Below, piece after piece: positions 10,457 to 63,519 of a DNA stretch of 64,000 nt. The notes under the pieces are model-generated. The model saw nothing but the letters and a program-made list of their open reading frames with translations. It searched no databases and was not told the origin of the DNA. Numbering within the stretch: the first letter of the stretch is position 1; every line of letters begins with the position of its first letter. The DNA comes from Eledone cirrhosa (taxonomy: Eukaryota): NCBI GenBank assembly GCA_964016885.1, contig OZ024740.1:350672001-350736000 (forward strand), written 5' to 3'. The translations under genes and the position numbers were made by a program.

Positions 10457-13400
10457 GAATGCTATGGTTGACAGAGGCTCGGCTCTGTAAGGTATTGTAA
10501 ATTTTGACCACTATAACAATTGTAAATTGTTTAAAACTTTAACCAACTTGTAGACAAAAACACCCTCCTCCTCGTGAGAGGGGTCTTTCTGCCCGTTATT
10601 TGGCCCTTCGGGGTTAAATAATCGCTTATTGGGGTTTTGTGCCCAATATTTATTTTAAACAAAAAAAACAACATGGCTACGAAAAAGAATTTTCATAGGT
10701 CACTCCCACTCATTCCGTCTTCCTCTTCCTCAATCGTCACTACAGCAGAGAGAAGATTGTCTCTCTCGGTCCCTTCTTTAAATGTGTCTCTCTCCCTCCC
10801 TTCTCTTTCGCAAGCGACGACAGAAAAGAAAAATCTCGTGCAAAGCGTGCAAGATTTCTCCACGACGACGACGACAACGACGAAAAAGGTGTGCGGGAAA
10901 TACGAAAACCCATTTCATTCGTCTGACGTCAGGAATAATAGCAGTAGCAGCCGTAATAACAACAACAACAGTTACAATGAAAACAACAGTAGCAGCCGCA
11001 ACAGCATCAGCAGCAGCATAAACAACAACAGCATTAGCAGCAGCAACAACAACCACAGCAACAGCGGTGGCGGCAGTAGTCGTAGTACCTGCAGCAACAA
11101 CAAAAGTAACAGCAGCTCTGACAACAACAACAACAAAAACAACAGCAGCAAAGAAAAACCAATCTCGTTTGCAGGTATCGCAAAGAACCTGGAAACCATC
11201 CTCATAACAAATGAGGAATTAGAGGAAGCGAAGAAGATGGTGACAAAAACTGGATACCGAGCAATCTGTAAGGCAGCCGAAAAATTTGTCGAAACCCAAC
11301 AGCACTGTACGGTCACGTACTGTACAGTAAGTACAAAATCCCGTAGGGTTGAAAGAGCCACAGAGGCTCAAATACAGAAAGCTTTGGGGTCTGTGTGGCA
11401 GCGAAAAACGCACATCACCCGAGGCAAGAAATATGCCACCGTAGACGTACTTTTTGTCACACCCCAGGAGGCAAAGGCTCAATCCTTAGTGACCCTAAGG
11501 AGCGAGGAAATGGTGTTGGTAGCCTCCTATTGCGGGCAAAAAATTGTGAGGGTCAAACTGAACCACGTCCCCCCCCCCCCGGGATGGCCCCTTCTTAGCT
11601 GGTCGCGCCTGTCCTCGTCGGAATCGAGGACAAAACAACTGTACTGCAAGTACAGAAAAAAGTAAGAGAAGATTGGGTCGGTACCACCATTGAGATGTTA
11701 ATTCAAACCAACCAGGAGTGCATCGAAGCTATCCCGGATGTGATAGACTTCGATAACGGCACTCAACTGCCCATAATTGTTGAGGGCAAACGCCCGAAAT
11801 GCTTTCGCTGTGGATCGAAGACTCACCTCAGGGCCTTCTGCAACGAGAAGACCCTGAGAAAGGAGAACCCCCCCCTCCTTCCGAAACCGGCTCCACGGCT
11901 ACCAGCAACAGGACAAGCGCAAACAGGAACGATAGGTCCGTCGCACCCATACCCACGCCACGGAAATCAAAAACAGCAGCAGCAGTGGAAGTATTAACAA
12001 CAACAACAGCAATACCAAATGCAGCTGCAACAGAGACTCCAGTGCAAACATCACCAACAACAATAAGTGAAAGAGTGGAGCTGGTACCCCTCCCCGACCT
12101 CACAGAATCAGACATGGAGTGTGAGGTGGGAGAGGAATGGCAAAAGCTCGTAAAAAGGCACAAACGCAGAAGCAGCGCATCGTCGCCTTCGAAAAGGGAG
12201 GAAAGAAATGAAAAAAGGGCTACTGCAAAGAGACTCACAGCAGCAACACCAACACCATCACCACCCACACTAGCACCACCATCATCACCGGCGACAACCC
12301 CACCGCCAACAACACCTTCAACACTACCACCACAAGCACCAACATCGCAAGCACAACAACAAAACACACACACCCAGCAACAACGACAAGAAAATAGCAG
12401 AACCACACCCCACCCCCAGAAAAACAAATGCACGGCAATAAATACACACAACAAGAAACTAATGACTTACATAAGTGAACACACAGACATTTCACAGCAC
12501 AACTACATAATACCAGCACCAATCAAAACGCCAACTAACATAAGACTGCTAAAAATAGCACAGAAACATTAAAACGAAATTCCCCAACGCAGTTGGTGAT
12601 TTCAGAGACCTAGGAGGAACACTCAACCACAATTCAAGATAGTCAGCTACACGGACCACAAATTCGTGATCTGTGTGCTTGACTTAGATAGGCTTCATAG
12701 ACGAGGACCCGGCTACTGGAAGCTAAACGCGTCCTTACCAGCGCGCAAAACCTACAGAGACCGGATTAGCGAACTAGTTAAGCGGGCGTTGACGGGGGCC
12801 ATCGTCAACAACAAGTGGAGGTTTGCTCTGAAAACAGAGATTAGAATAGAATCGATTAGGTTTAGTAAGGCTTTAGCAATAGAGAAAAATAGAGCAGAGG
12901 GAGAACTAGTTAGAAAATTAGACGAGGCGCTTAGGAAAGGCATTGCGACCGACGTGCTTGCGGCGAAATTGGCCCTTGACCAATTCTTCAATGCAAAGCA
13001 CGAAGGCTGCGTTGTCAGAGCAAGGGTGCGTGCTCTCAGACACGAGGGGACGAAAGCCGTTCATTGGACCCGAGTGGTGGAGGCGCGTCGTGGCAACAAA
13101 GCCACGATCCGGTCTTTGGTGGACCACGACGAGCGCATGCTACTCGATCCCGGGCAAATGTGTGAAGCTTTTCAGCGACACTTCGCTCAGCTGTTCGGGG
13201 GCAGCGGTGGGCCGGGTCGAGGGATGGACTTTAGTGTCTATCACGACGGACTGCTGCGGCTCTCGGCCACTGAGGCGAAGTGTTGCGAAAAGCCGATAAC
13301 AGCCGCTGAAGTAAGGGAGGCAATGACTGGCTGCACAAGGGGTAAATCGCCTGGTTTGTATGGTCTGCCCTATGAACTTTACGTACAGATACCAGACTTG

Positions 13401-15596
13401 TTCGGAGGCCTCTTGGCGGACGTCTACTGCAACTGGCAACAGAACGGGAGAATTCCGAGTTCTGTGAGCCGAGGAGCGGTGGCACTGCTGAGACAGGATC
13501 CGAACAAGGGGGATAACATAGATAATTTCCGGCCCATAACTCTGCTAAACACAGAGTTCAAGATTTTGGCGAAGGTGCTAGCAAAGAGGTTGGCGCTTGT
13601 CGTTGGTGGTCTGGTGGGAGAGGCGCAGACATGCGCCATTCCCGACAGATCCATCCACGACAACCTCCACCTCATGCGATACATCGTAGAGAGGGTAGCT
13701 AGGGAACCGGGCACGGGTGGGTCCTTGATCAATTTAGATCAGTCGAAAGTTTTCGATAGGGTCGACCATCGTTACCTAGCGGCTGTCCTGAGGGCGGCTG
13801 GCTTTGGGCCCGTCTTCAGAGGCTGGATCGCTGCCATGCACAGCGACATCTGCTCTGTGGTGAGAGTGAACGGTCACCTGTCGGAACCGTTCAGCATCAT
13901 GCGCTCGATCCGCCAAGGATGCCACCTCTCGTCCCTCTTGTACGTATTGACTCTCGAGCCATTACTGCACAAACTGGAGACGTTGAGGGGGGTTCCGCGC
14001 GAACTAGGATGCGGAAGATCCGTGTCAGCATATGCAGACGATCTCACCGTAGTGGTGTCGAACGCCAAACACATCGAGGCGATCGGCACTACACTAAGAG
14101 AATACGAAGCGGTGACAGGAGCAATGATCAACCAGGAAAAGTCAGTGGGCCTGCAGCTCGGCACCTGGAGAGGCAGGTCCATGCCGTCCAACAGCATCGT
14201 CGGACGCTGGACGGACGGACCGGTTAGACAAAAACTGGGACGAGGTGACGAGCAGGGTGGCTTCTCTCACCCAGAAATGGGCGGAGAGGAAGCTATCCCT
14301 GAAAGGTCGAGCAGAGGTGGCTAACGCGTACATCGCGTCTGTCATCTGCTACCGCCTGACCATCGTACCTTGTCCTAAGCCTCGCCTGACTGCGCTGGCG
14401 CTTTTTGTGGAAGGGACGCGCTCCGATGGTCAGGCGGTCCATCTGTTGTCAACACCCACTACGTGGAGGGCTGGGAATGCCGTGGCTGATGATGCGCAGG
14501 CACGCGCTCAGGCTACTACATCTCCACCTCTTCCTCGACGGTCTCCAGGTGTGGTCGCCGTTTGCTAGACACGTATTTCCCCAGCTCGTTTCCTTGACGG
14601 AGCTGCAGTCCTAGGTCAAGCGAAGACCGAGAGGGAGCGCCTGGAGACTGGAATGTCTTCAGACGCTCACAGCCCTCGACCAATCAGGCAATGTGATCGG
14701 TGGAAACTCCACCTCGGCGTTCTATAGAGGATTAGTGGAGGGGAAGAGCGACGACGTACTTGGGGAAACTCTAGGCGTCGACGAAAATCAACTAGCCAAT
14801 CTCTTCCGAAGAACTTTCGGGCCAGGGCCTATGGACAACTTCCAGAAATCTCTGGCCTGGCAGTGCTACCGAGGAGCCTTGCCAGTTCGGGATAAACTCT
14901 ACAGGCATGGAGGTGCCGTCAGCCGGGCATGTCCGAGATGCGCACAGGGCGACGAAACCGTCCTGCACGCACTCGTCCAGTGTCCGAAAATTGCTGACTT
15001 GTGGGTTTATGTCGAACACCTGCTGTCGTGTGTAGGACGGATCCGGCTATCATCTGAGTCCATCGTGAGGATTGCCCCGCCCTCTTCCTTTACCTGGGAA
15101 GGGCAGGCAGTTTTTATCTGTCTGATGGCCATGGCGAAAGAGATAGTATGGTGGACACGTTTGAAAGGGCTGAAGACGAGCACTTACCTCTTCGGTGATA
15201 CCATGATTGACTTTTTCAAATTTCATTTGAAAAGGAAAATCAGAGTAGAAAGGGAAGTGCTCTCTTCCCAGCATTTTGTTGAAATATGGGTGAGAGAAGC
15301 AAGAATGGCCCGAGTGAATGGGCCTACTCTGAGTATATATCTGTAAATTAAAGGTGGAAAACTGGGAGAGGACACTTGCCTTGGTGGTCAGGGTCACTGT
15401 GGCCTTTTTACTGGGCTTTCTCCACAAATGTCCCTCCGAAGTCTCCCCCCTATTGGGGAATTTTTCATTGTTATTTTTTTGTTACATCCTCTGTTTTTGT
15501 TTTTTACACGCAGAAATGCCCATTTGTACCGTACTGTATTGTCCTGCACTGTCCTTAATGTCTACTTTATGTAAACCCTTGTGGTTAATAAAGAAA

Positions 15597-23994: not shown

Positions 23995-24146
23995 ACAGCC
24001 GGTCACTTTTATCCTTATGGCTTAGTATAATTGATTTTTTATATGGTTGATTGTGCTGTTTGGCAGAGGAAATGGAGTATATATTTTCTTTATCTAATAA
24101 TTCTGTAGACATGATTTATAATAATTATATATATATATATATATAT

Positions 24147-24725
24147 ATGAATAAAGTTAGTCCTTCATCAGTGATCTTCCAACCTTCATTGGTATTTCAT
24201 CGCTTTAAAGACCATATACCTCCGGTTGGTGCGAGCAACAGCTAAAGAAAGTCGTTGGGACACGCAAATAAGGGGAACGAGCGAGACTGTAAATAAACAA
24301 AGGTGGCAATGCAACGAAAAGTTAGGAAGAAAGAGTCAAGTCCCAGATTTCCATGAATATAAATTCGGTGAAGTTGTGAACGAAAGAGAATAAAGACCAT
24401 CAAACCTAGTCGAAATGTGAGCAAGGAAGGAATTCCGCACAGGTCTAACGGGAGGAAGGAGGAGTCTAGTCCCAGAATTCGGTGAACATAAGTTCTGTGA
24501 AATCGTAGACAACAGAGAAAAAAGGAACAACCAGCTTGGTCAAGCGTGCGCGAGAAAAGAATTACGCACAGGTCAAACGGGAGGAAGTAGGAGAGGTAGT
24601 AGCAGAGCGTGAGTGAGTGAAGGGTGAGGAAGAGGCTAACAGAGAGAGTGACTGTTAGAGAGGGTAAAGATACAGAGAAAGAGGAAGCAGTAAGAACGAA
24701 ATAGACGGGTCACAGCGGAGGAAAA
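24147..24725 (-). mobile_element. Retrozyme-like non-coding repeat, subfamily 1 (copy B)
   Basis: About 90% similar (by eye) to 25035-25615; flanked by TA-rich tracts. Confidence 0.85.
24160..24261 (-). ncRNA. Rearranged kink-turn hammerhead-like ribozyme (copy B)
   Basis: Same fold as 25499-25600; third K-turn pair is A.G. Confidence 0.75.
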
Positions 24726-24910: not shown

Positions 24911-25655
24911 GATCTTTAAAGCGATGAAATACCAATGATGGTTGGAAGATCACTGATGAAGGACTAACTTTATTCATATGTAACCCATTAGCAACCACGC
25001 AGCACGTTTATTCTCATATTTACACATATTTATTCCCCCGCTATGACCCGTCTATTTCGTTCTTACTGCTTCCTCTATCTCTGTATTTTTACCCTCTCTA
25101 ACAGTCACTCTCTCTGTTAGCCTCTTTCTCACCCTTCACTCACTCACTCTCTGTTACTACCTCTCCTCCTCCTCCTTCTTCCCGTTTGACCTGTGCGTAA
25201 TTCTTTTCTTTCGCACCCTTGGTCTGGCAGGTCGCTTTTTTTCTCTCTCTCGTCTACGATTTCACAGAACTTACGTTCACCGAATTCACTGACTAGATCC
25301 CTTCTTCCTCCCGTTAGACCTGTACGGAATTCCTTCCTTGCTCACATTCCAACCAGGTTTGATGGTCTTTAATCTCTCTCGTTCACGATTTCACCGAACT
25401 TATATTCATGGAAATTTGGGACTTGACTCCTGCATCCTCATTATTCGTTGCTTCACCATCTTTGTTTGTTTACACTCTCGTGTCCCCTTTATTTACGTGT
25501 CCCAACGACTTTTTTTAGCCGTTGCTCGCACCAACCGGAGGTATATGGTCTTTAAAGCGATGAAATACCAATGATGGTTGGAAGATCACTGATGAAGGAC
25601 TAACTTTATTCATATGTAACCCATTAGCAACCACGCAGCACGATTATTCTCATAT
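24911..25655 (+). mobile_element. Retrozyme-like non-coding repeat, subfamily 1; 636-nt unit with ~110-nt terminal direct repeat
   Basis: 24911-25020 recurs at 25547-25656; no meaningful ORF. Confidence 0.88.
25499..25600 (+). ncRNA. Rearranged (non-circularly permuted) kink-turn hammerhead-like ribozyme (copy A); predicted cut after 25545
   Basis: GGTA-TA^TGGTCTT..GCGA-T-GAAA-TACC..AAGATCA-CTGATGA-A-GGAC; helices covary with subfamily 2. Confidence 0.78.
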
Positions 25656-25740
25656 TTATATATATATATATGTAATATGTATATATGTATATTTGCTATC
25701 ACCACTTGTGTAGAAGAAAGTTAAATAACAGCCTACCAAT

Positions 25741-26835
<1,095 letters not shown>

Positions 26836-28004: not shown

Positions 28005-28089
28005 AAAGTTATATTTAAATTGTTGGGTTAACAACGAGTAAATATTTATAACTGATATAAAAGCACTCAACAAGTATTTGGAGTATATT

Positions 28090-28568
<479 letters not shown>

Positions 28569-33121: not shown

Positions 33122-35330
33122 TTATTCTTTGTTGCTGTGTGAACGAATCTGAGCACTTGTAGAAGGGGAAATTTTAAAGTTGGGTAGTGTCATTCCTGCG
33201 CAGTTCGCAATATGGCTGCTCAAGGGGATTTTTCTTGTGTTAGCGTCCCGGATTTGTTGGCGGTGGATGGTCATTCTTTTGCGTAATGAGGTTCCCGTCT
33301 GTCCTATGTAGTTGTGTTTGCACCCACCGCAAGTTATTGCGTAAATCAAGTTCTCCGAGTTGCAGGTGAAATTGTTTTTTACTGTAAATGTTTGGCCATC
33401 TTTAAATGTATATTTGTGTCCTTCTGTGAGGTAGAGGCACGTTCCACAGTTTGTTCTACCACATTTGGTAACTGTAGGGTTGAGGATTGGTTTGGGTATA
33501 TTTGGTCCTTTGAGAATGCGTTTTAGTGATATGGGTTGTCTTTTACTTTTAAGGATCTTGTGTGTTTCAAGAATAGACTTCATTTTTACATCTTTAAGTA
33601 GGATGGGGAGGTTTTTGTGTAGGTGATCAAACATTTCGGTATTTCTGGGGTTGAAAGTGGGTACATATGGCAGGGTGTTGAGTGTGGTTTTCTATTTTGG
33701 ATTGTTAAGTTGATGGGGATTTAGGTGTTTTGCCCTGTCTATTCCATTGTTGATTATTTCAAGTGGAAAGGCTCTTAAGATAAGGGTGTCTTTTAGTTCC
33801 TTTAGTCTTTGCTCCCGTTTAGGTGGATCTGATACTATGGTACATATACGTTTGGCCAAATTGTAAGGAATGTTAAGTTTTGTATGTTTTGGGTGACTTG
33901 ATGTGAAAAAGAGGTATTGCTTGAAATCTGTGGGTTTATAGAATATATCTGTATCTAATTTCCCGTCTATTACAGAGATGAGAATATCCAAGAAGGCTAA
34001 TTCCTTGGGATTGGATTCCATTGTGAATTGTATGTTATTATCTATGTTGTTTATCATGTTTTTAAACATAGTAAGTGAGTTCATGTCTTCTTGCCATAGG
34101 ATAAAGCAGTCGTCTAGATATCTTTTCCAATTGGCTTTGAGGTGTGTGTGGAAAGAGTCTCCAAATAAGAGAAGGGACTGACTGTATATTTGTTGTTCAT
34201 GGAATCCCATGACTAGGTTGGCATATGTGGGTGCTACTTTCGTGCCCATTGCAGTACCTGATACTTGTCTGTATGTTGGACCATTGAATGTGAAGTAGTT
34301 ATTTTGTAGGATAAAGCGGAGTCCGTCAGTGATAAAATCTTTGTTGATGCGTGTCGGTATTTCTGATGGGTGTGTGTTAAGCCAGTATTGGACTGCTGTT
34401 ATTCCATAGTTGTGGGGTATGTTTGTGTAGAGGTTTATTACGTCAAAGGAGACAAGAATTGTATTTGCACTTACTGTTTTAGGGAGGTGCTTCAGCATGT
34501 CAAGGTCATCTCGTATGTCGCTCTGTATATGTTGTAGAAAGGGTTTCAGTAGGATGTCCAGAAAGTTGCTAAGTCTGTGGGTTTCACATGTAGGGCCTGC
34601 TATAATTGGCCTGAGTTTTAGGTCTTCTGGTGGTGTTAGTTCAATGTAATTGTTGGTTGAGGTCTCACATGCATCGTTTATGGGTTTACATTTGTGGAGT
34701 TTCGGTAAGCCGTAAAAAGAGCTTGTATTGCATTTGAAGTGGCTTATATAGTTAAACTCTTTTGTGGTTAAGCTGTTGCGGTATTTATTCAGTAAGGTCA
34801 AAAGGTTCCCATTGTTTTGGTGTATTTGTAGTTTTCTGTTTTTTCATAGTATGTGTTGTTTTCTAAAATGTTAAGTGCGAGGGTCCTATAGTAGTCCGTA
34901 TTCATAATGACAACAGTACTGCCTTTATCGGCTTCTTTGATAGTTATCTCAGGGTTGTTTCTAAGTGTGAATAATTCTTCCCATTCGTGTGTAGATAGGT
35001 TTGATTTCGTGTGTTTATTTGTAATTTTTTCATAGGGAAAGTTGGTGATGTGTTCGCAGTACGTGTCCAGTGCTTTATTTCTTCCCTTTTGTGGGCAGAA
35101 ATTACTTTTATTTCTAACCAGTGATTCGTCTTCAGTGTTGGTGTCGTTGTGGAAGAATTCCGTTAGTCGCAGCTTTCGGCAGTATTCCATGATGTCATCC
35201 TTCATTTCGGGGAAGTTTGGTTTACGTGGTGTAGGTGTAAATTTCAGGCCCTTACTTAAAATGTTGATTTGTGTGTTGGTTAGAGGTGTCTTTGAGAGGT
35301 TGATTATTTTTGGTTTCTCCTGAGGGGGGG
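33122..35330 (-). pseudogene. PLE RT/GIY-YIG ORF, frameshifted
   Basis: ORFs 34798-35205, 33692-34801, 33122-33634. Confidence 0.9.
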
Positions 35331-35890
35331 GGGGGCCATCGAGTATCCTGGTATTTCAGGCTTTTCCCTAAAAAAGGAATGTAGTTTTGTGTGTGATTAT
35401 ATTTTGTTGGTCTGTTGCGTGTGGGTCTGTAGCTTGTTGTTTCATGAGGGTGAAAGGGTATAAAAAATGACCGGTTTCGATGGGTCTGCAAAAGCCATCT
35501 TTTCAAATGTTGATTAATATTAAGAAAATTAATAATAATAAGAGTTAAAATTTGAGATTTGAAAATTCAAGTATAAAATTCAGTGTGGGATCTCATAGTA
35601 GTTTTCATCTTGGTAGCAGCAAGTTGACTGCTGTGTGCCTTTCTGGTAGCGAATGAGGAGTTATTTGGGGGAGTGGGTTATTTTATAAAGGTCAGATTTA
35701 GCAAATCTGACCTTTATAAAATAACCCACTCCCCCAAATAACTCCTCATTCGCTACCAGAAAGGCACACAGCAGTCAACTTGCTGCTACCAAGATGAAAA
35801 CTACTATGAGATCCCACACTGAATTTTATACTTGAATTTTCAAATCTCAAATTTTAACTCTTATTATTATTAATTTTCTTAATATTAATC

Positions 35891-52507: not shown

Positions 52508-52532
<25 letters not shown>

Positions 52533-52538
<6 letters not shown>

Positions 52539-53120
52539 ACAAACGTGCTGCGGGGTTGCCAATGGATTACATATGAATAAAGTTAGTCCTTCATCAGTGA
52601 TCTTCCAACCATCATTGGTATTTCATCGCTTTATAGACCATATACCTCCGTTTGGTGCGAGCAACAGCTAAAAAAAGTCGTTGGGAGACGTAAATAAAGG
52701 GGACACGAGTGTAAACAAACAAAAATGGTGAAGCAACGAAAAGTGAGGAAGAAGGAGTCAAGTCCCAAATTTCTATGAATTTAAATTCGGTGAAATCGTG
52801 AACGAGAGAGAATAAAGACCATCAAACCTGGTTGAAATGAGAGCAAGGAAGGAATTTCGCACAGGTCTAACGGGAGGAAGAAGGGGTCTAGTCTGTGAAT
52901 TCGGTAAACATAAGTTCTGTGAAATCGTAGACGAGAGAGAGAAAAAATGCCGACCGGCCTGGCCAAGCGTGCGAAAGAAAAGAATTACGCACAGGTCAAA
53001 CGGGAAGAAGGAGGAGGAGGAGAGGTAGTAACAGAGAATGAGTGAGCGAGTGAAGGGTGAGGAAGAGGCTAACAGAGAGAGTGACTGTTAGAGAGGGTAA
53101 AGATACAGAAAAAGAGGAAG
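52533..53120 (-). mobile_element. Retrozyme-like repeat subfamily 1 (copy D) with rearranged HHR at 52586-52687
   Basis: Homologous to 25070-25655; core intact, three helix mismatches. Confidence 0.85.
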
Positions 53121-57061: not shown

Positions 57062-57067
<6 letters not shown>

Positions 57068-59750
57068 CGGCCGCCCCATCGTCTCCGCTTGCAACTGCCC
57101 CACCGAACTCATCTCCGCCTTTCTCGACGCCCTCCTCGCCCCCCTTGTCACCACCTTCCCCTCCACATCTCCGACACCAACCACGCCCTGCGCCTTTTCG
57201 ACTCCTTCACCTACCCACGCGGCCCACAGCCCTTCCTCTTCACCCTAGACATCAAGTCCCTCTATACAGTCATCCCCCACGCCGACGGCCTTCGCGCCCT
57301 CAAACACTACCTCGACCTTCGCCCCTCACCCATTCCCTCCACCCCCACCCTCCTTCGCCTCGCCGAGCTGGTCCTCACCCTGAATTGTTTCTCCTTCTCG
57401 GGTGAGTTTTACCAACAGGTCACGGGGGTAGCCATGGGTACAAGAATGGGCCCGAACTATGCCAACCTTTTTGTTGGCCATGTTGAGGCCCAAATCTTTG
57501 CCCAGTACACCGGCCCCACGCCCGAACTGTACGGTCGTTACATTGACGATTGTATCGGAGCCACGACCCTCACCCGAGAACAGCTCGACTCCTCTCTCTC
57601 CTTCTTCTGCTCCTTCCACCCCTCCCTCCACTTCACCACCTCTATCTCCACCACCCACGTCCACTTCTTAGACATCTCCGTCGCCTTCGACCCCTCCCAC
57701 CACTCCCACCACTCCCTCGTCACCTCCGCCTTCTTCAAACCCACCGACTCCCACTCTTACCTCGACTTCACCTCTTCCCACCCCACCCACACTAAACACT
57801 CCATTCCCTACTCCCAACTTCTCAGGATCCGCCGCCTCTGTAGCCGTGATGCTGACTTTGAGTCCCAGGCCCTTTCCCTAGTCAGCCATTTCATCCGCAG
57901 AGGTTACCCCCCTCTCTCGTCCACACCGCTCTCACCCGCGCCCGTGCTGTCCCCCGCTCCACCACCCTCACCCCACGCCACCGCACACCCACCCACCGTC
58001 TCCCCTTCCCCATCACCTACCACCCCTCCACCTTACCCCTCCACCGCACCATCCGCCGCCTCTTCCGACGCCTCCAGTCCGACCCCTCCACCTCCCACAT
58101 CTTCCCAACCCCACCACTCCCCTCCTTCAAACGCGCACGCAATCTCCGCACCTTCCTCGTCCACAGCTCCCTACCCCCCAACCCACGCTCTGTTTACCCC
58201 CCCCCGGTTCCTTTCCCTGTTCTAGGCCCCGCTGCAACACCTGTCCCCACATCACCAACACCACCACCTTCCAGGGTCACAACGGCCACTCTCTCTCTGT
58301 CCGGCATGCCTTCCGCTGCACCTCCTCCAACTTATGTCGGACAGACGGGACGTCGCCTGGCGGACCGAGTCACGGAGCACCTCCGGGATATTCGTCTCGG
58401 GGGCAGTTCCCCCATCGCCCGCCACTTTGGTGGCCCTGGACATTCCGCACGCCATCTCACAGTCTGTGGCCTACTCCAGTGCCACGGAACCCCCGCCAAT
58501 CGCCTTACGGTCGAACAACGAACTATCTTCATCTTACAGACCCACACTCCCCCCGGCCTGAACTCCCCACCCTTATTCCTTTAGCCTTCGACCGCCCCCC
58601 TCCCCCCACACTTATCTCCCACTAACACCACTAACACACCCCTCCTTTTCACCGCCCACCACACAACTAACAATACTAACACCTCCACTCCACCCCTCAT
58701 CTGACCACCCTTCCCCAACTAACATACTAACATCCCTTCCCTCCCCTCTTCCCCCCTCCTTATCACACGCACACACCCACCGGCACATATATACACGCGC
58801 TCACACTAAACACACACCCTACTACTACCACTAACCCTCACCCCCACACCTCTCACCTCCACACCTCCATCCCACCACCCCGCAACTAACCTCACTAACA
58901 CCCCCTAACCCCAAGCACACGAACACACGCACCCACTTACACCACCCACCCCACACGCAACTAACATCACTAACACCCCCCAACCCAACGCACACGTACC
59001 CACACACCCTCGTACACCACCAACTCTACACACCCTACCACCACTAACCCCCACTCACACCTGCATTCAACCCCTCCCCACCTCCCGTATACTAACACCC
59101 ACTAACACCTCTTCATCAAACTACACACACACCAGTACTCCACACTCCCTCCATAGAACCACGCACACCCTTCTCTCCCCCCTCCACCCACACCCTCGCT
59201 CCACACTCACTCATCCCACTAACACCCCTACTAATACACACACACACACCCTCCTCACTCCAAATTTCACACCTACCCATCCTCGCCCCTTTACCATTCC
59301 ACCGACTGCTGCTATGCCCTCTGACCACCTCCCAGCACAAACAGACCACAGCACTCCCACTGCTGACCACTTCCTGTTGCGCGCGCACCCCACATCTCTC
59401 CTCTTCCGACCATCGCTTCATGGAATACCCACACGCAGAAATTGACCAACAACCAATCCACTAAACATCTTCGGAATTTACCAACTTTTCAACCATACTC
59501 TTACGTAATCACCTATATAACTCACCCACACACACACCCCAAAAATTTTTTTTCTCCACACGCCACCTACACCCACAACACGCTTAAACCCCACACACAC
59601 GTGCTTTCCACCACATATCTACACCCTCAGCCTCCTGATTCCTCTCTCCCCACCCCTCTATCCACACACGCACAGACACTCCGACCCCCCCTCACACACA
59701 CCTCTTCCTGAACATGCAACCCTGTTCTTCCCCAACCCTTACTTTCTCAT

Positions 59751-60792: not shown

Positions 60793-61197
60793 ATATATGC
60801 GAGTGTGTGGGAGTGAGGGCTTTTTAAGTGTGCTTGTAGACACCTGACCAAAGGCATTGTTAGCTTAAATGAACCTTAAAAATCAGGATTGGCACCCCCA
60901 GGGTGAACCTGTCTATAAAATTCTTTCTGCCTTTGTTATTCTAAATATAGTTTTTAAACCCTTTTCTGTAAACCCATCCCAATCACCACACTCTCCTACC
61001 ACTAGAAAAGATATAAATACCACCACATTACTTGTACAGTCGGCTTCCTGATGATTTCTCCCGAATGAAACAGTTCTAGTCCTGTAGACTAAATATATTA
61101 AATATTTATACTCTGCTTTGTATTGAGTACCTTACTTACTGTGGTTACCCCCGACTGAACCCGGGATAATCTTATATATATATATATATATATATAT

Positions 61198-61853
61198 GAA
61201 AAAATGGGGAGAAGAATACTGCTGGTTGCACATGGATAACATGTAATAAAATAAGTCCCTCATCAGTGATTTGCCGACGATCATAGATATTTCATTGCAT
61301 TAAAAATCATATACCTCACGTCGGTGCAATAATAACTAAATTAAGTTATTAGGACAATTAAAACGCGTAAAGCGAGTGAAACAAGATAACAACAAAGAGG
61401 ATAGCTAACCGTAGAAGGAAGGGAACAAGCTTCATAGTTATTCTGTTAGCATAAGCTAGGTGAATATATGAGCGCTTAGAAAAAAGACCTTTCAGGAGCG
61501 AATTCAAATGTGAGAAAGAGAGAAAATGATTTCGTCGCGAACGGGGTGAAGTGAGAAGAGGAGAAACAGTGAGTGAGTGGGTGGAAGTGTGAGGAAGAGT
61601 TAACTGACATGACAGAGGGGGCGAAAGAAAGTAGGAGAAACAGAGAGAGCGAGGGAGCAGTAAGAGAGAGAGAGAGATAGAGAAAAAAAACAGAATCGCA
61701 GTAGGTAAATATATGTGAAAAAATGGGGAGAAGAATACTGCTGGTTGCACATGGATAACATGTAATAAAATAAGTCCCTCATCAGTGATTTGCCGACGAT
61801 CATAGATATTTCATTGCATTAAAAATCATATACCTCACGTCGGTGCAATAATA
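61198..61853 (-). mobile_element. Retrozyme-like repeat subfamily 2; 519-nt unit with ~137-nt identical direct repeats
   Basis: 61198-61334 recurs at 61717-61853; (TA)n on both sides. Confidence 0.88.
61255..61355 (-). ncRNA. Rearranged kink-turn hammerhead-like ribozyme, subfamily 2 (partial second copy 61774-61853)
   Basis: GTCC-TAATAACT/AGTTATTA-TTGCA-CCGACG-T-GA-GGTA-TA^TGATTT-ttaa-TGCAA-T-GAAA-TATC-TAT-GA-T-CGTCGG-c-AAATCA-CTGATGA-G-GGAC. Confidence 0.78.
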
Positions 61854-62957: not shown

Positions 62958-63519
62958 TGGAGAATAGGATTGGCTGTGTAGTTGCTAGTAAGGTAGCTTA
63001 AAATGGATTGAGAATAAGAAGAAAGCAAGAACGGGGGGTGGGGGGTCCTCATCAGTTGTCTACTGGGGGTCTCGGATATTTCCACGCTTTAAAGACAAGA
63101 TATCTACCACCCAGAGCGTTCAATAACTGGGTAAGTTATTGGAAAAACGGTGGAGGGAGGAGGGGAAAATAGAAGGGAAAAGGGAAGAAAAGAGAAAACA
63201 GCCAAAAAAACAACAAACTGAGCAAACCTTAAGGTAAGAAAATCTTTCGCCCACACGCTCTTGAACTTAAGTTCTGTTATCGGTATATATATATATATAT
63301 ATATATATAGGAAAAAGTATGACCCCGAAGGCAGAGCTCTGAACTAAATTAGAATTTTTAGCCTGGCTAAAAATTCTAATTTAGTCCAGAAATAGCCATC
63401 GAAACGGCTTGAGCTCTGCCACCGGGGTCATACTTTTTCCTATTTCCCACTCTACTACCCTAAGTATTGAGTATTTTGGTGCGTTATGATCCATCTGGTT
63501 CCTTACCAAAATTCCTTTG

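What the first reader, a model, noticed from the sequence alone, without database searches (positions are those of the whole stretch)
25499..25600. Non-circularly permuted, cage-like hammerhead ribozyme with a kink-turn and a four-way junction
Seen: all HHR core parts occur in an order that matches none of types I/II/III. 5'->3': GTCC(25499) / hairpin CAACGACT-AGCCGTTG / TCGC(25526) / CCAACC-G-GA / GGTA-TA^ (cut after 25545) / TGGTCTT / TAAA / GCGA-T / GAAA / TACC / AAT-GA-T / GGTTGG / AAGATCA / CTGATGA(25589) / A / GGAC. Pairings: stem III GGTAT:ATACC, stem I TGGTCTT:AAGATCA, stem II A10.1-U11.1 continued by TCGC:GCGA across a four-way junction (GTCC:GGAC plus the hairpin). Inference: the distal ends of stems I, II and the bent-back stem III join at a second junction, so covalent links would replace the usual loop I/loop II contact. 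Known: a few non-circularly permuted HHRs have been reported by the Weinberg group. I know of none with this K-turn plus four-way-junction architecture, or in an animal retroelement. Standard HHR descriptors would miss it.
Basis: partly seen in the sequence, partly recalled or inferred. Interest (0 to 1): 0.96.

Follow-up and report, generated by a model that had tools for sequence, protein, structure and literature searches.

The report
Rewired hammerhead ribozyme in octopod retroelements
This is very probably a self-cutting RNA whose parts are wired in a rare scrambled order and held by a scaffold I could not find described; it sits in over 13,000 copies of small jumping genes in an octopus-like animal and also turns up at the tail of "Naiad" jumping genes that were reported to lack the usual form of this RNA, but cutting has not been tested.

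Summary
Confirmed. Window 25499-25600 holds a full hammerhead core in the order cleavage site, GAAA, CUGAUGA. This is 'type SGC' of Eckert et al. 2023, which that paper found only in metatranscriptomes. The scaffold differs from theirs: stem II is at most one pair that opens into a four-way junction, and stem III runs through a standard kink-turn. The motif has 13,661 exact pattern matches in the genome (reversed control 0). Across 17 subfamily representatives, 23 of 32 pairs show two-sided changes, including helices not used to pick them. It lies in 0.5-0.64 kb non-coding tandem units that end in (TA)n and carry inverted 5' pieces, like Penelope-type elements. 5' ends of copies pile up at or just after the predicted cut. 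Read by eye in Craig et al. 2021's supplement, 16 of 53 Naiad 3' ends carry non-circular hammerheads (9 SGC, 7 CSG). The two Octopus Naiads share this kink-turn scaffold and spacing, though Naiads were reported to lack canonical hammerheads. Not shown: cleavage, expression, or an autonomous Naiad in this genome. New variant of a known kind, high interest.

The parts
25499..25600 (+). Type-SGC hammerhead with four-way junction and kink-turn (the finding)
   Evidence: 119 bits with own model R1, by construction
25499..25529 (+). 5' scaffold domain: P0 strand 25499-502 (pairs 25597-600), hairpin 25503-524, arm strand 25526-529 (pairs 25557-560); three of the four helices of the junction that stands in for stem II
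   Evidence: (helices 1-3)
25531..25539 (+). NC-helix strand (pairs 25576-581) and non-bulged kink-turn strand G3n-G2n-A1n
   Evidence: helix 4 (5 of 6 pairs with two-sided change); (GA at 2n-1n in 103 of 128 copies, UA in 16)
25540..25552 (+). Block S: stem III strand, U16.1, H17 (A25545; predicted cut between 25545 and 25546), stem I strand
   Evidence: H17 = A 94, C 32, U 1, G 1 of 128
25557..25575 (+). Block G: arm strand, U11.1, GAAA, stem III strand, then the bulged kink-turn strand (3-nt loop, G1b, A2b, U3b)
25582..25600 (+). Block C: stem I strand, CUGAUGA, A10.1, P0 strand
   Evidence: 10.1-11.1 can pair in 116 of 128 copies
25034..25669 (+). One full 636-nt non-coding repeat unit (family A), ending in (TA)n
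24913..25033 (+). Preceding partial unit; its 5' end lies about 1-3 nt after the predicted cut, so it has blocks G and C but lacks the 5' scaffold and H17
   Evidence: (D12, 97%)
24142..24722 (-). Inverted, 88% identical copy of the unit, with a complete ribozyme at 24157-24266 and the shorter 3' end in (TA)n
52517..53120 (-). Further family A copy (ribozyme 52583-52692)
61186..61846 (-). Family B tandem (519-nt spacing; ribozyme 61252-61360 and a truncated one at 61771-61846) with compensatory changes in the hairpin, arm, NC helix and stems I and III
63041..63150 (-). Family C copy of the same ribozyme, partly decayed

Best explanation
An active cis-cleaving hammerhead ribozyme of non-circular type SGC, carried by non-autonomous, retrozyme-like derivatives of Naiad Penelope-like elements. 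Shown: the fold is conserved under covariation across many subfamilies; the units are non-coding tandem repeats with Penelope-type ends; the same scaffold is at the 3' end of published Octopus Naiads. Inferred: the standard core forms. Stem II is replaced by a four-way junction stacked on the G12-A9/A13-G8 pairs. The kink-turn bends stem III back so that its extension, stem I and the junction arm meet in a second junction, which holds the helices the way the loop I/loop II contact does. Transcripts of tandem units are cut after A25545 into monomers of about 636 nt. Four helices (P0, arm, NC helix, stem III, 19 pairs) join sequence upstream of the cut to sequence downstream, so the ends of a monomer would stay clamped, which favours circles. 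A Naiad-type RT/GIY-YIG protein nicks (TA)n and primes internally about 65 or 105-120 nt past the cut. On a circle it yields the 1-3 unit arrays; on a cut linear RNA it runs off at the cut, giving the pile-up of 5' ends.
For: 13,661 matches against 0 control, and 772 more against 33 control with other stem III sequences. 23 of 32 pairs with two-sided change, 0 of 500 shuffles as high. NC helix Watson-Crick pairing 0.84 with its own partner against 0.46 with a partner from another subfamily; P0 0.84 against 0.67; arm 0.87 against 0.73. H17, which no pattern fixed, is A, C or U in 127 of 128 copies, the hammerhead UH rule (seen in the descriptors). Families A and B are 77 of 102 identical in the ribozyme against 188 of 392 upstream. 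5' ends: 9 events in the 16 nt after the cut against 4 in the next 44 nt among 100 copies (p 0.0016), one inversion exactly at the cut (L292). In 109 metagenome copies of a related scaffold, 12 of 59 still at risk end exactly at the cut (p 3.6e-5). 180 of 240 copies run into (TA)n within 200 nt, at two preferred ends, matching the PLE 'tail' and the (TA)n target of Naiads. Naiad_Obim and Naiad_Ovul 3' ends show the same order, hairpin loop, kink-turn and 14-nt spacing (read by eye). Published SGC ribozymes cleave at 0.007-0.19 per min.
Against: No cleavage assay. The usual G10.1-C11.1 pair occurs in only 3 of 128 copies and 10.1-11.1 cannot pair in 6 of 17 representatives, which could slow or abolish catalysis. 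Core conservation in this genome is partly circular, as copies were found with the core pattern. Copies and subfamilies are related, so the counts are not independent events. The 5'-end excess could come from RT stalling in strong structure or from AT microhomology (a second peak of 14 copies 6 nt from the pattern). Most copies (78 of 100) run unbroken through the cut site. No Naiad ORF was found in this genome, and Craig et al. call cephalopod Naiads long-inactive remnants, although family A is young (88-97% between units). In an anole PLE the hammerhead cut only with protein present and was not needed for insertion in vitro. RNAalifold recovers only the hairpin and NC helix.
Confidence: 0.8

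Rival explanations
1. The fold is real but is slow or needs protein. It mainly serves as the structured signal that the element's RT, or a host kink-turn protein, binds to start reverse transcription; cutting is occasional or regulated.
For: Non-canonical, single-pair or absent stem II. A standard kink-turn is a known protein-binding site (abstracts). The 3' ends lie 16 or 55-72 nt after CUGAUGA. The PAc hammerhead is protein-assisted and dispensable for insertion in vitro. 78 of 100 copies span the cut site.
Against: Avoidance of G at H17 while A, C and U are all used, and intact cores in Naiad ends read without regard to the core, point to selection on catalysis. 5' ends peak at the cut.
Confidence: 0.25
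2. The ribozyme came from Naiads, but the young families are now moved by another (TA)n-targeting Penelope-like element, such as the Neptune-like family of this genome.
For: No Naiad ORF found by five short-motif searches. Near-intact Neptune-like RT/GIY-YIG ORFs lie next to SGC copies at L081-L083 (clade name from recalled motifs, not from a tree).
Against: Those elements carry their own ordinary type I hammerhead and are separated from the SGC units by (TA)n, so adjacency is explained by the shared target. Exact short motifs easily miss a diverged Naiad.
Confidence: 0.3
3. A dead relic or chance arrangement of hammerhead words in a satellite-like repeat.
For: MFE folding is unremarkable; no Rfam hit.
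Against: Control 0 against 13,661. Covariation in helices not used for selection. The same scaffold with other sequences in ctenophore, coral, acanthocephalan, clam shrimp and octopus Naiads.
Confidence: 0.03

Closest known systems
Type-SGC hammerhead ribozymes (HRIMA-1 and SGC variant; Eckert et al. 2023, PMC10085705)
   Same: Block order S-G-C; intact core; short linker from stem I to the strand before GAAA (typically 3 nt there, 4 nt here); cut predicted at UH.
   Different: Theirs have a normal stem II of 2-6 pairs between blocks G and C and one helix 'I' binding the other sides of stems I and II. They are about 80 nt, and none was found in genomes of known organisms. Here there is a four-way junction instead of stem II, a 5' scaffold domain, a kink-turn on stem III, about 100 nt, and over 13,000 genomic copies. 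The window copy fails their SGC descriptors, which need CGAAA, CUGAUGAG or CUGAUGAUG, and a contiguous stem II.
Naiad Penelope-like elements (Craig et al. 2021, PMC8557442)
   Same: (TA)n target, tandem and inverted insertions, optional tail. The 3' ends of Naiad_Obim and Naiad_Ovul carry the same ribozyme scaffold (read by eye).
   Different: The window element has no ORF. The paper found no canonical hammerhead in Naiads and only flagged 'HHR_core' and 'HHR_half_core' cases. No Naiad ORF was found in this genome.
Non-LTR retrozymes of animals (Cervera and de la Pena 2020, PMC7229834; Li et al. 2026, bioRxiv 10.64898/2026.07.22.740005)
   Same: Non-coding tandem units with one hammerhead per unit, non-autonomous, proposed to derive from PLE pseudo-LTRs.
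   Different: Defined by type I hammerheads and searched only with type I models; RNAs of about 170-400 nt in the 2020 paper. Here the ribozyme is non-circular, units are about 500-640 nt, and circular RNA is not shown.
Type-CSG hammerheads (Eckert et al. 2023)
   Same: [quoted passage not shown]
   Different: Known from two metagenomic sequences only. It is a different order from the window motif.
Standard kink-turn (Huang and Lilley, PMC5061560)
   Same: 3-nt bulge followed by G-A and A-G pairs. The U-at-2n variant seen in 16 of 128 copies is the commonest Kt-23 variant.
   Different: I found no report of one inside a natural hammerhead. The non-cephalopod Naiad versions use other hinges.

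Membership tests
Hammerhead ribozyme | Core CUGANGA, GAAA and UH with H not G | tested here: met
   H17 is A, C or U in 127 of 128 copies. CUGANGA and GAAA were fixed by the search pattern, H17 was not.
Hammerhead ribozyme | Stems I and III flank the cut | tested here: met
   93.1% and 90.6% of cells paired, 8 of 11 pairs with two-sided change (rows were selected on these two stems)
Hammerhead ribozyme | Stem II closed by 10.1-11.1 (usually G-C) between A9 and G12 | tested here: inconclusive
   One pair at most in the window (A-U); can pair in 116 of 128 copies (A-U 60, G-U 39, U-A 14, G-C 3); direct stem II is 0-2 pairs in all 17 representatives. It is replaced by a four-way junction.
Hammerhead ribozyme | Site-specific self-cleavage leaving a 2',3'-cyclic phosphate | not testable with these tools
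   Indirect only: excess of 5' ends at the cut
Type-SGC permutation | 5'-to-3' order S, G, C | tested here: met
HRIMA-1 / SGC-variant motifs | Contiguous stem II with CGAAA and CUGAUGA(U)G, plus helix I binding the other sides of stems I and II | tested here: not met
   UGAAA, CUGAUGAAG, 1-pair direct stem II; the strand before stem I pairs with the 5' domain instead
Kink-turn | 3-nt bulge, G1b-A1n, A2b-G2n, flanking helices | tested here: met
   Non-bulged strand (not in the pattern) has GA in 103 and UA in 16 of 128 copies; NC helix covaries. Sequence level only; the kink itself is not shown.
Non-LTR retrozyme | Non-coding tandem units, one hammerhead per unit | tested here: met
   Spacings 630-640 (family A) and 496-531 (others); up to 3 units at L007 and L027
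Non-LTR retrozyme | Type I hammerhead | tested here: not met
   The order is S-G-C
Non-LTR retrozyme | Expressed as linear and circular RNA | not testable with these tools
   No run on record as RNA was offered
Penelope-like element (non-autonomous) | Partial tandems, inverted 5'-truncated pieces, optional 3' tail, microsatellite target | tested here: met
   definitions
Naiad clade | ORF with N-terminal GIY-YIG, CxC linker and C-terminal RT attached to the motif | tested here: inconclusive
   No such ORF near the sampled copies or by short motifs in this genome. The link rests on published Octopus Naiad ends, read by eye.

The most novel reading that the evidence does not exclude
A hammerhead layout outside the six three-block permutations. 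Stem II is replaced by a four-way junction built on the core. In the Naiad-borne forms (coral, acanthocephalan, clam shrimp, Octopus, and the L087 subfamily here) C11.1 pairs with a G from a remote upstream strand while the base after A9 pairs in another helix, so 'block C' is itself broken. This ribozyme, with CSG hammerheads in nematodes and twister-like folds in some bivalves, is the missing self-cleaving module of the Naiad clade, and the multi-helix clamp across the cut makes the element RNA circularise.
Probability: 0.55. Interest if true: 0.95.

Novelty: new variant of a known kind. Interest (0 to 1): 0.88.

Why it matters
If it cleaves, non-circularly permuted ribozymes are not a rarity of unidentified RNA agents but a high-copy part of animal genomes that standard descriptors miss. 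It would overturn the reading that Naiad retroelements spread without hammerheads, and make the open question of what hammerheads do for Penelope-like elements testable on a new, independent fold. It would also give structural biologists a natural hammerhead with no ordinary stem II, braced by a kink-turn, and a possible host-protein handle on cleavage.

Tried and rejected
Rfam at gathering scores: no hit in the window. MFE folding and RNAalifold cannot draw the pseudoknots and gave only part of the fold. Expression: no RNA holder listed; two runs of unrecorded kind were laid as contigs and say nothing on expression, ends or circles. Autonomous partner: degenerate short motifs for Naiad RT or endonuclease gave 2, 2, 0 and 0 matches in this genome, and the 4 matches were unrelated sequence on inspection. 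An Octopus-Naiad-like block G motif gave 6 matches (control 2): one (L114/L154) is an old ribozyme remnant without ORF, one a decayed copy, four unrelated. A DNA search with that remnant found two more remnants and no Naiad ORF. One Naiad RT motif scan of viral contigs found nothing. None of 120 metagenome loci carried a recognisable Naiad ORF. The Neptune-like element beside an SGC copy at L081 has its own type I hammerhead, so it was not taken as the source. A role in MAK16 control was rejected: the MAK16 ORF is a processed copy; the intron-bearing gene is on C7, and none of 8 other processed copies has the pattern within the 3.5 kb fetched. A standard type I, II or III fold across tandem units was rejected by reasoning: circularising S-G-C never gives C-G-S. 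My census of junction register in this genome was confounded by an alternative arm pairing in family A and is used only for the L087-type copies (A10.1 with C11.1, 5 copies). Model R1 scores the coral-type scaffold only weakly (best 24 bits, E 0.006; 5 of 18 such loci reported). Searches of earlier findings by words and by sequence returned nothing.

Full report
Observation. The order is cleavage block, GAAA block, CUGAUGA block. Rfam finds nothing in the window, and single-strand folding is unremarkable (z -1.16), as expected for a fold with crossing helices. The host is an octopod: the neighbouring MAK16 protein is 93% identical to Octopus vulgaris and 89% to Argonauta. The assembly is 3.0 Gb.

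Abundance. A 34-place pattern taken from the window's families matches 6701+6960 times, with 0+0 for the reversed control. A version with other stem III sequences adds 364+408 (control 16+17). The window alone holds seven copies from three families.

Covariation. From 225 matches in fetched loci, 162 were distinct and 114 had at least 10 of 11 pairs in stems I and III; these fell into 33 clusters. I aligned 17 representatives whose 5' domain looked intact and left out 16 that were old, decayed, deleted or truncated. The full structure pairs 90.2% of 542 cells; 23 of 32 pairs show a change on both sides; 0 of 500 shuffles reach this, and slid partners give 30-49%. The tool warns that related sequences can beat shuffles without structure, but that the pair-count measures rarely do. 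The four helices not used for selection all covary (P0 2 of 4, hairpin 5 of 6, arm 2 of 4, NC helix 5 of 6). Swapping partners between subfamilies drops Watson-Crick pairing of the NC helix from 0.84 to 0.46. Among 128 distinct copies with intact stems I and III, the non-bulged kink-turn strand, which no pattern fixed, reads GA in 103 and UA in 16. U at 2n is the commonest Kt-23 variant. H17 is A 94, C 32, U 1, G 1, and 10.1-11.1 can pair in 116 (A-U 60, G-U 39, U-A 14, G-C 3). These are copies, not independent events. Families A and B share 77 of 102 bases in the ribozyme, 188 of 392 upstream and 39 of 56 downstream. Direct stem II is only 0-2 pairs in all 17 rows, so the four-way junction is needed. 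This is also the weakest point for activity.

The element. The ribozyme lies near the 3' end of a 636-nt non-coding unit (25034-25669). A partial unit precedes it and begins 1-3 nt after the predicted cut, and an inverted copy lies at 24142-24722. Elsewhere units form 1-3 copy tandems (630-640 nt in family A, 496-531 in others), often with inverted 5' pieces. 180 of 240 copies run into (TA)n within 200 nt, 29 at 16 nt and 75 at 55-72 nt after CUGAUGA. Tandems, inversions, an optional tail and microsatellite targets are Penelope-like signatures.

Fossil evidence of cutting. In the first 100 rows, chosen without regard to upstream sequence, 78 run on for at least 60 nt and 22 fall short. I dropped 6 by eye as internal deletions or subfamily differences. 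Twelve ends (9 events) lie in the 16 nt between the cut and GAAA, one inversion exactly at the cut, against 4 in the next 44 nt (p 0.0016). Of 109 uncensored copies, 62 end at or after the cut and 12 exactly at it; the per-base stop rate is 14% at the cut and the two bases before it, against 2.7% further upstream. A second peak of 14 copies in an AT run shows that microhomology also shapes these ends, and RT stalling in structure is not excluded. This is suggestive, not proof.

The Naiad link. Craig et al. 2021 report that Naiads lack canonical hammerheads but flag 'core' and 'half-core' cases, among them Naiad_Ovul. I read by eye the last 270-300 nt of 53 of their 54 Naiad consensus records, plus core-word hits; none was run through a tool. 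Nine show S-G-C order with complementary stems: Bfor (weak stem I), Amil, Aacu, Anas (the three Acropora records are near-identical), Plae, EuTe, Obim, Ovul and Esco. Most also show the P0, hairpin and arm junction and the helix that continues stem III. Ptep is doubtful. Seven nematode records show C-S-G order (Nbra 1-3, Hcon, Hpol, Asuum and one Pristionchus record). Obim and Ovul have the same hairpin loop, kink-turn and 14-nt spacing as the families here, with different, complementary stems. In these Naiad forms C11.1 pairs with an upstream G and the base after A9 pairs in P0. The same register can be checked in tool-held loci (L173, L248, L087). One metagenome copy (L171) has upstream sequence resembling the Acropora Naiad 5' end (by eye), as an internal-deletion derivative would. 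The other 36 ends seen showed no clear non-circular hammerhead in the part visible; some carry twister-like or other conserved folds, and a ribozyme further upstream would have been missed. Against the link: I found no Naiad ORF in this genome, so the current mobiliser is unidentified.

Mechanism. Shown: conserved fold, repeat anatomy, shared scaffold with Octopus Naiads. Inferred: the core folds as in other hammerheads and cuts after A25545; the junction stands in for stem II; the kink-turn returns stem III to meet stem I and the arm. Eckert et al. noted that some SGC ribozymes join positions that are far apart in the crystal structure; a kink-turn is one way to do so. Nineteen pairs bridge the cut, which would hold monomer ends together and favour circles. 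That cutting and a protein ligase give circles comes from retrozymes (abstract), and internal priming at AT-rich nicks from an anole PLE. The same anole study found its hammerhead protein-assisted and dispensable in vitro, which supports my first rival.

Comparison and novelty. The order is type SGC. [quoted passage not shown] Searches for non-circular permutation, type-SGC, Naiad with hammerhead or ribozyme, kink-turn with hammerhead, and cephalopod ribozymes returned no paper describing this scaffold or permuted hammerheads in Naiads. The library lacks most subscription papers, so this is not proof of absence. Seen: PMC10085705 parts 2-5 of 8, passages, supplement parts 1 and 8 and search passages (no figures, not the full alignments, which could hold a closer variant); PMC8557442 passages, supplement part 1 and search passages; bioRxiv 2026.07.22.740005 parts 1-2 of 5 and passages (supplements closed); PMC11167929, PMC13725137, PMC5061560 and PMC3088659 passages; PMC7229834 abstract and outline. 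Core numbering, hammerhead geometry and the labels 'Neptune-like' and 'twister-like' are from my own knowledge, the last checked only against the twister consensus lines.

Verdict. Real, very probably a ribozyme, a new structural variant of the rare SGC kind in a new setting. It works like a retrozyme hammerhead. It is not a member of HRIMA-1, nor of type I retrozymes as defined. Interest 0.88.

Noticed in passing
window 25741-26835 (+): Intronless MAK16 ORF directly after the element's (TA)n. It is one of at least 9 processed copies of an intron-bearing gene on C7. Those viewed start after (TA)n and two show rearranged pieces, which resembles Penelope-type insertion of a host mRNA.
   Followed up: partly
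PMC8557442 supplement, 3' ends of Naiad_Mgal, Bpla, Mphi, Scon, Mmer: Twister-like motifs sit where other Naiads have the permuted hammerhead (read by eye).
   Followed up: no
PMC8557442 supplement, 3' ends of Naiad_CGi, Sglo, Olur, Tgra, Pmar, Skow 1-2, Pfla 1-2, Naiad-2_Chem: A shared conserved, structured-looking motif of about 60-80 nt at the same position, with no hammerhead core; a candidate for another ribozyme, unexplained.
   Followed up: no
PMC8557442 supplement, nematode Naiads: Seven type-CSG hammerhead candidates with complementary stems; this type was published from only two sequences.
   Followed up: partly
L160-L279 (metagenome contigs): A high-copy short element with the Acropora-type SGC scaffold, mostly cut down to the part after the predicted cleavage site; compensatory changes against the Acropora Naiad in stem I and the scaffold.
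   Followed up: partly
window 33122-35355 (-) and 57065-58225 (+): Broken Penelope-type RT with C-terminal GIY-YIG, and a second PLE-like RT fragment.
   Followed up: no
window 29740 (+), 29977 (+), 37184 (-), 53845 (-), 61048 (+), 62694 (+): CUGANGA words followed by GAAA in the ordinary order; probable type I hammerheads of other Penelope-like families.
   Followed up: no
L081:1406-5000: Neptune-like element in two frames with RT, cysteine linker and GIY-YIG, and its own minimal type I hammerhead in the terminal repeat; Pfam gave no hit on its 617-aa ORF.
   Followed up: partly
window 12600-15346 (+): LINE-type RT and zf-RVT fragments.
   Followed up: no
window 28084-28460 (arms 188 nt, 99%) and 35520-35880: Near-perfect fold-back inversions with almost no spacer, typical of Penelope-type 5' inversions.
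   Followed up: no
L114/L140:2700-2850 (-), L333, L329, L104: Old isolated remnants whose GAAA block resembles the Octopus Naiad ribozyme more than families A-C do; no ORF nearby.
   Followed up: partly
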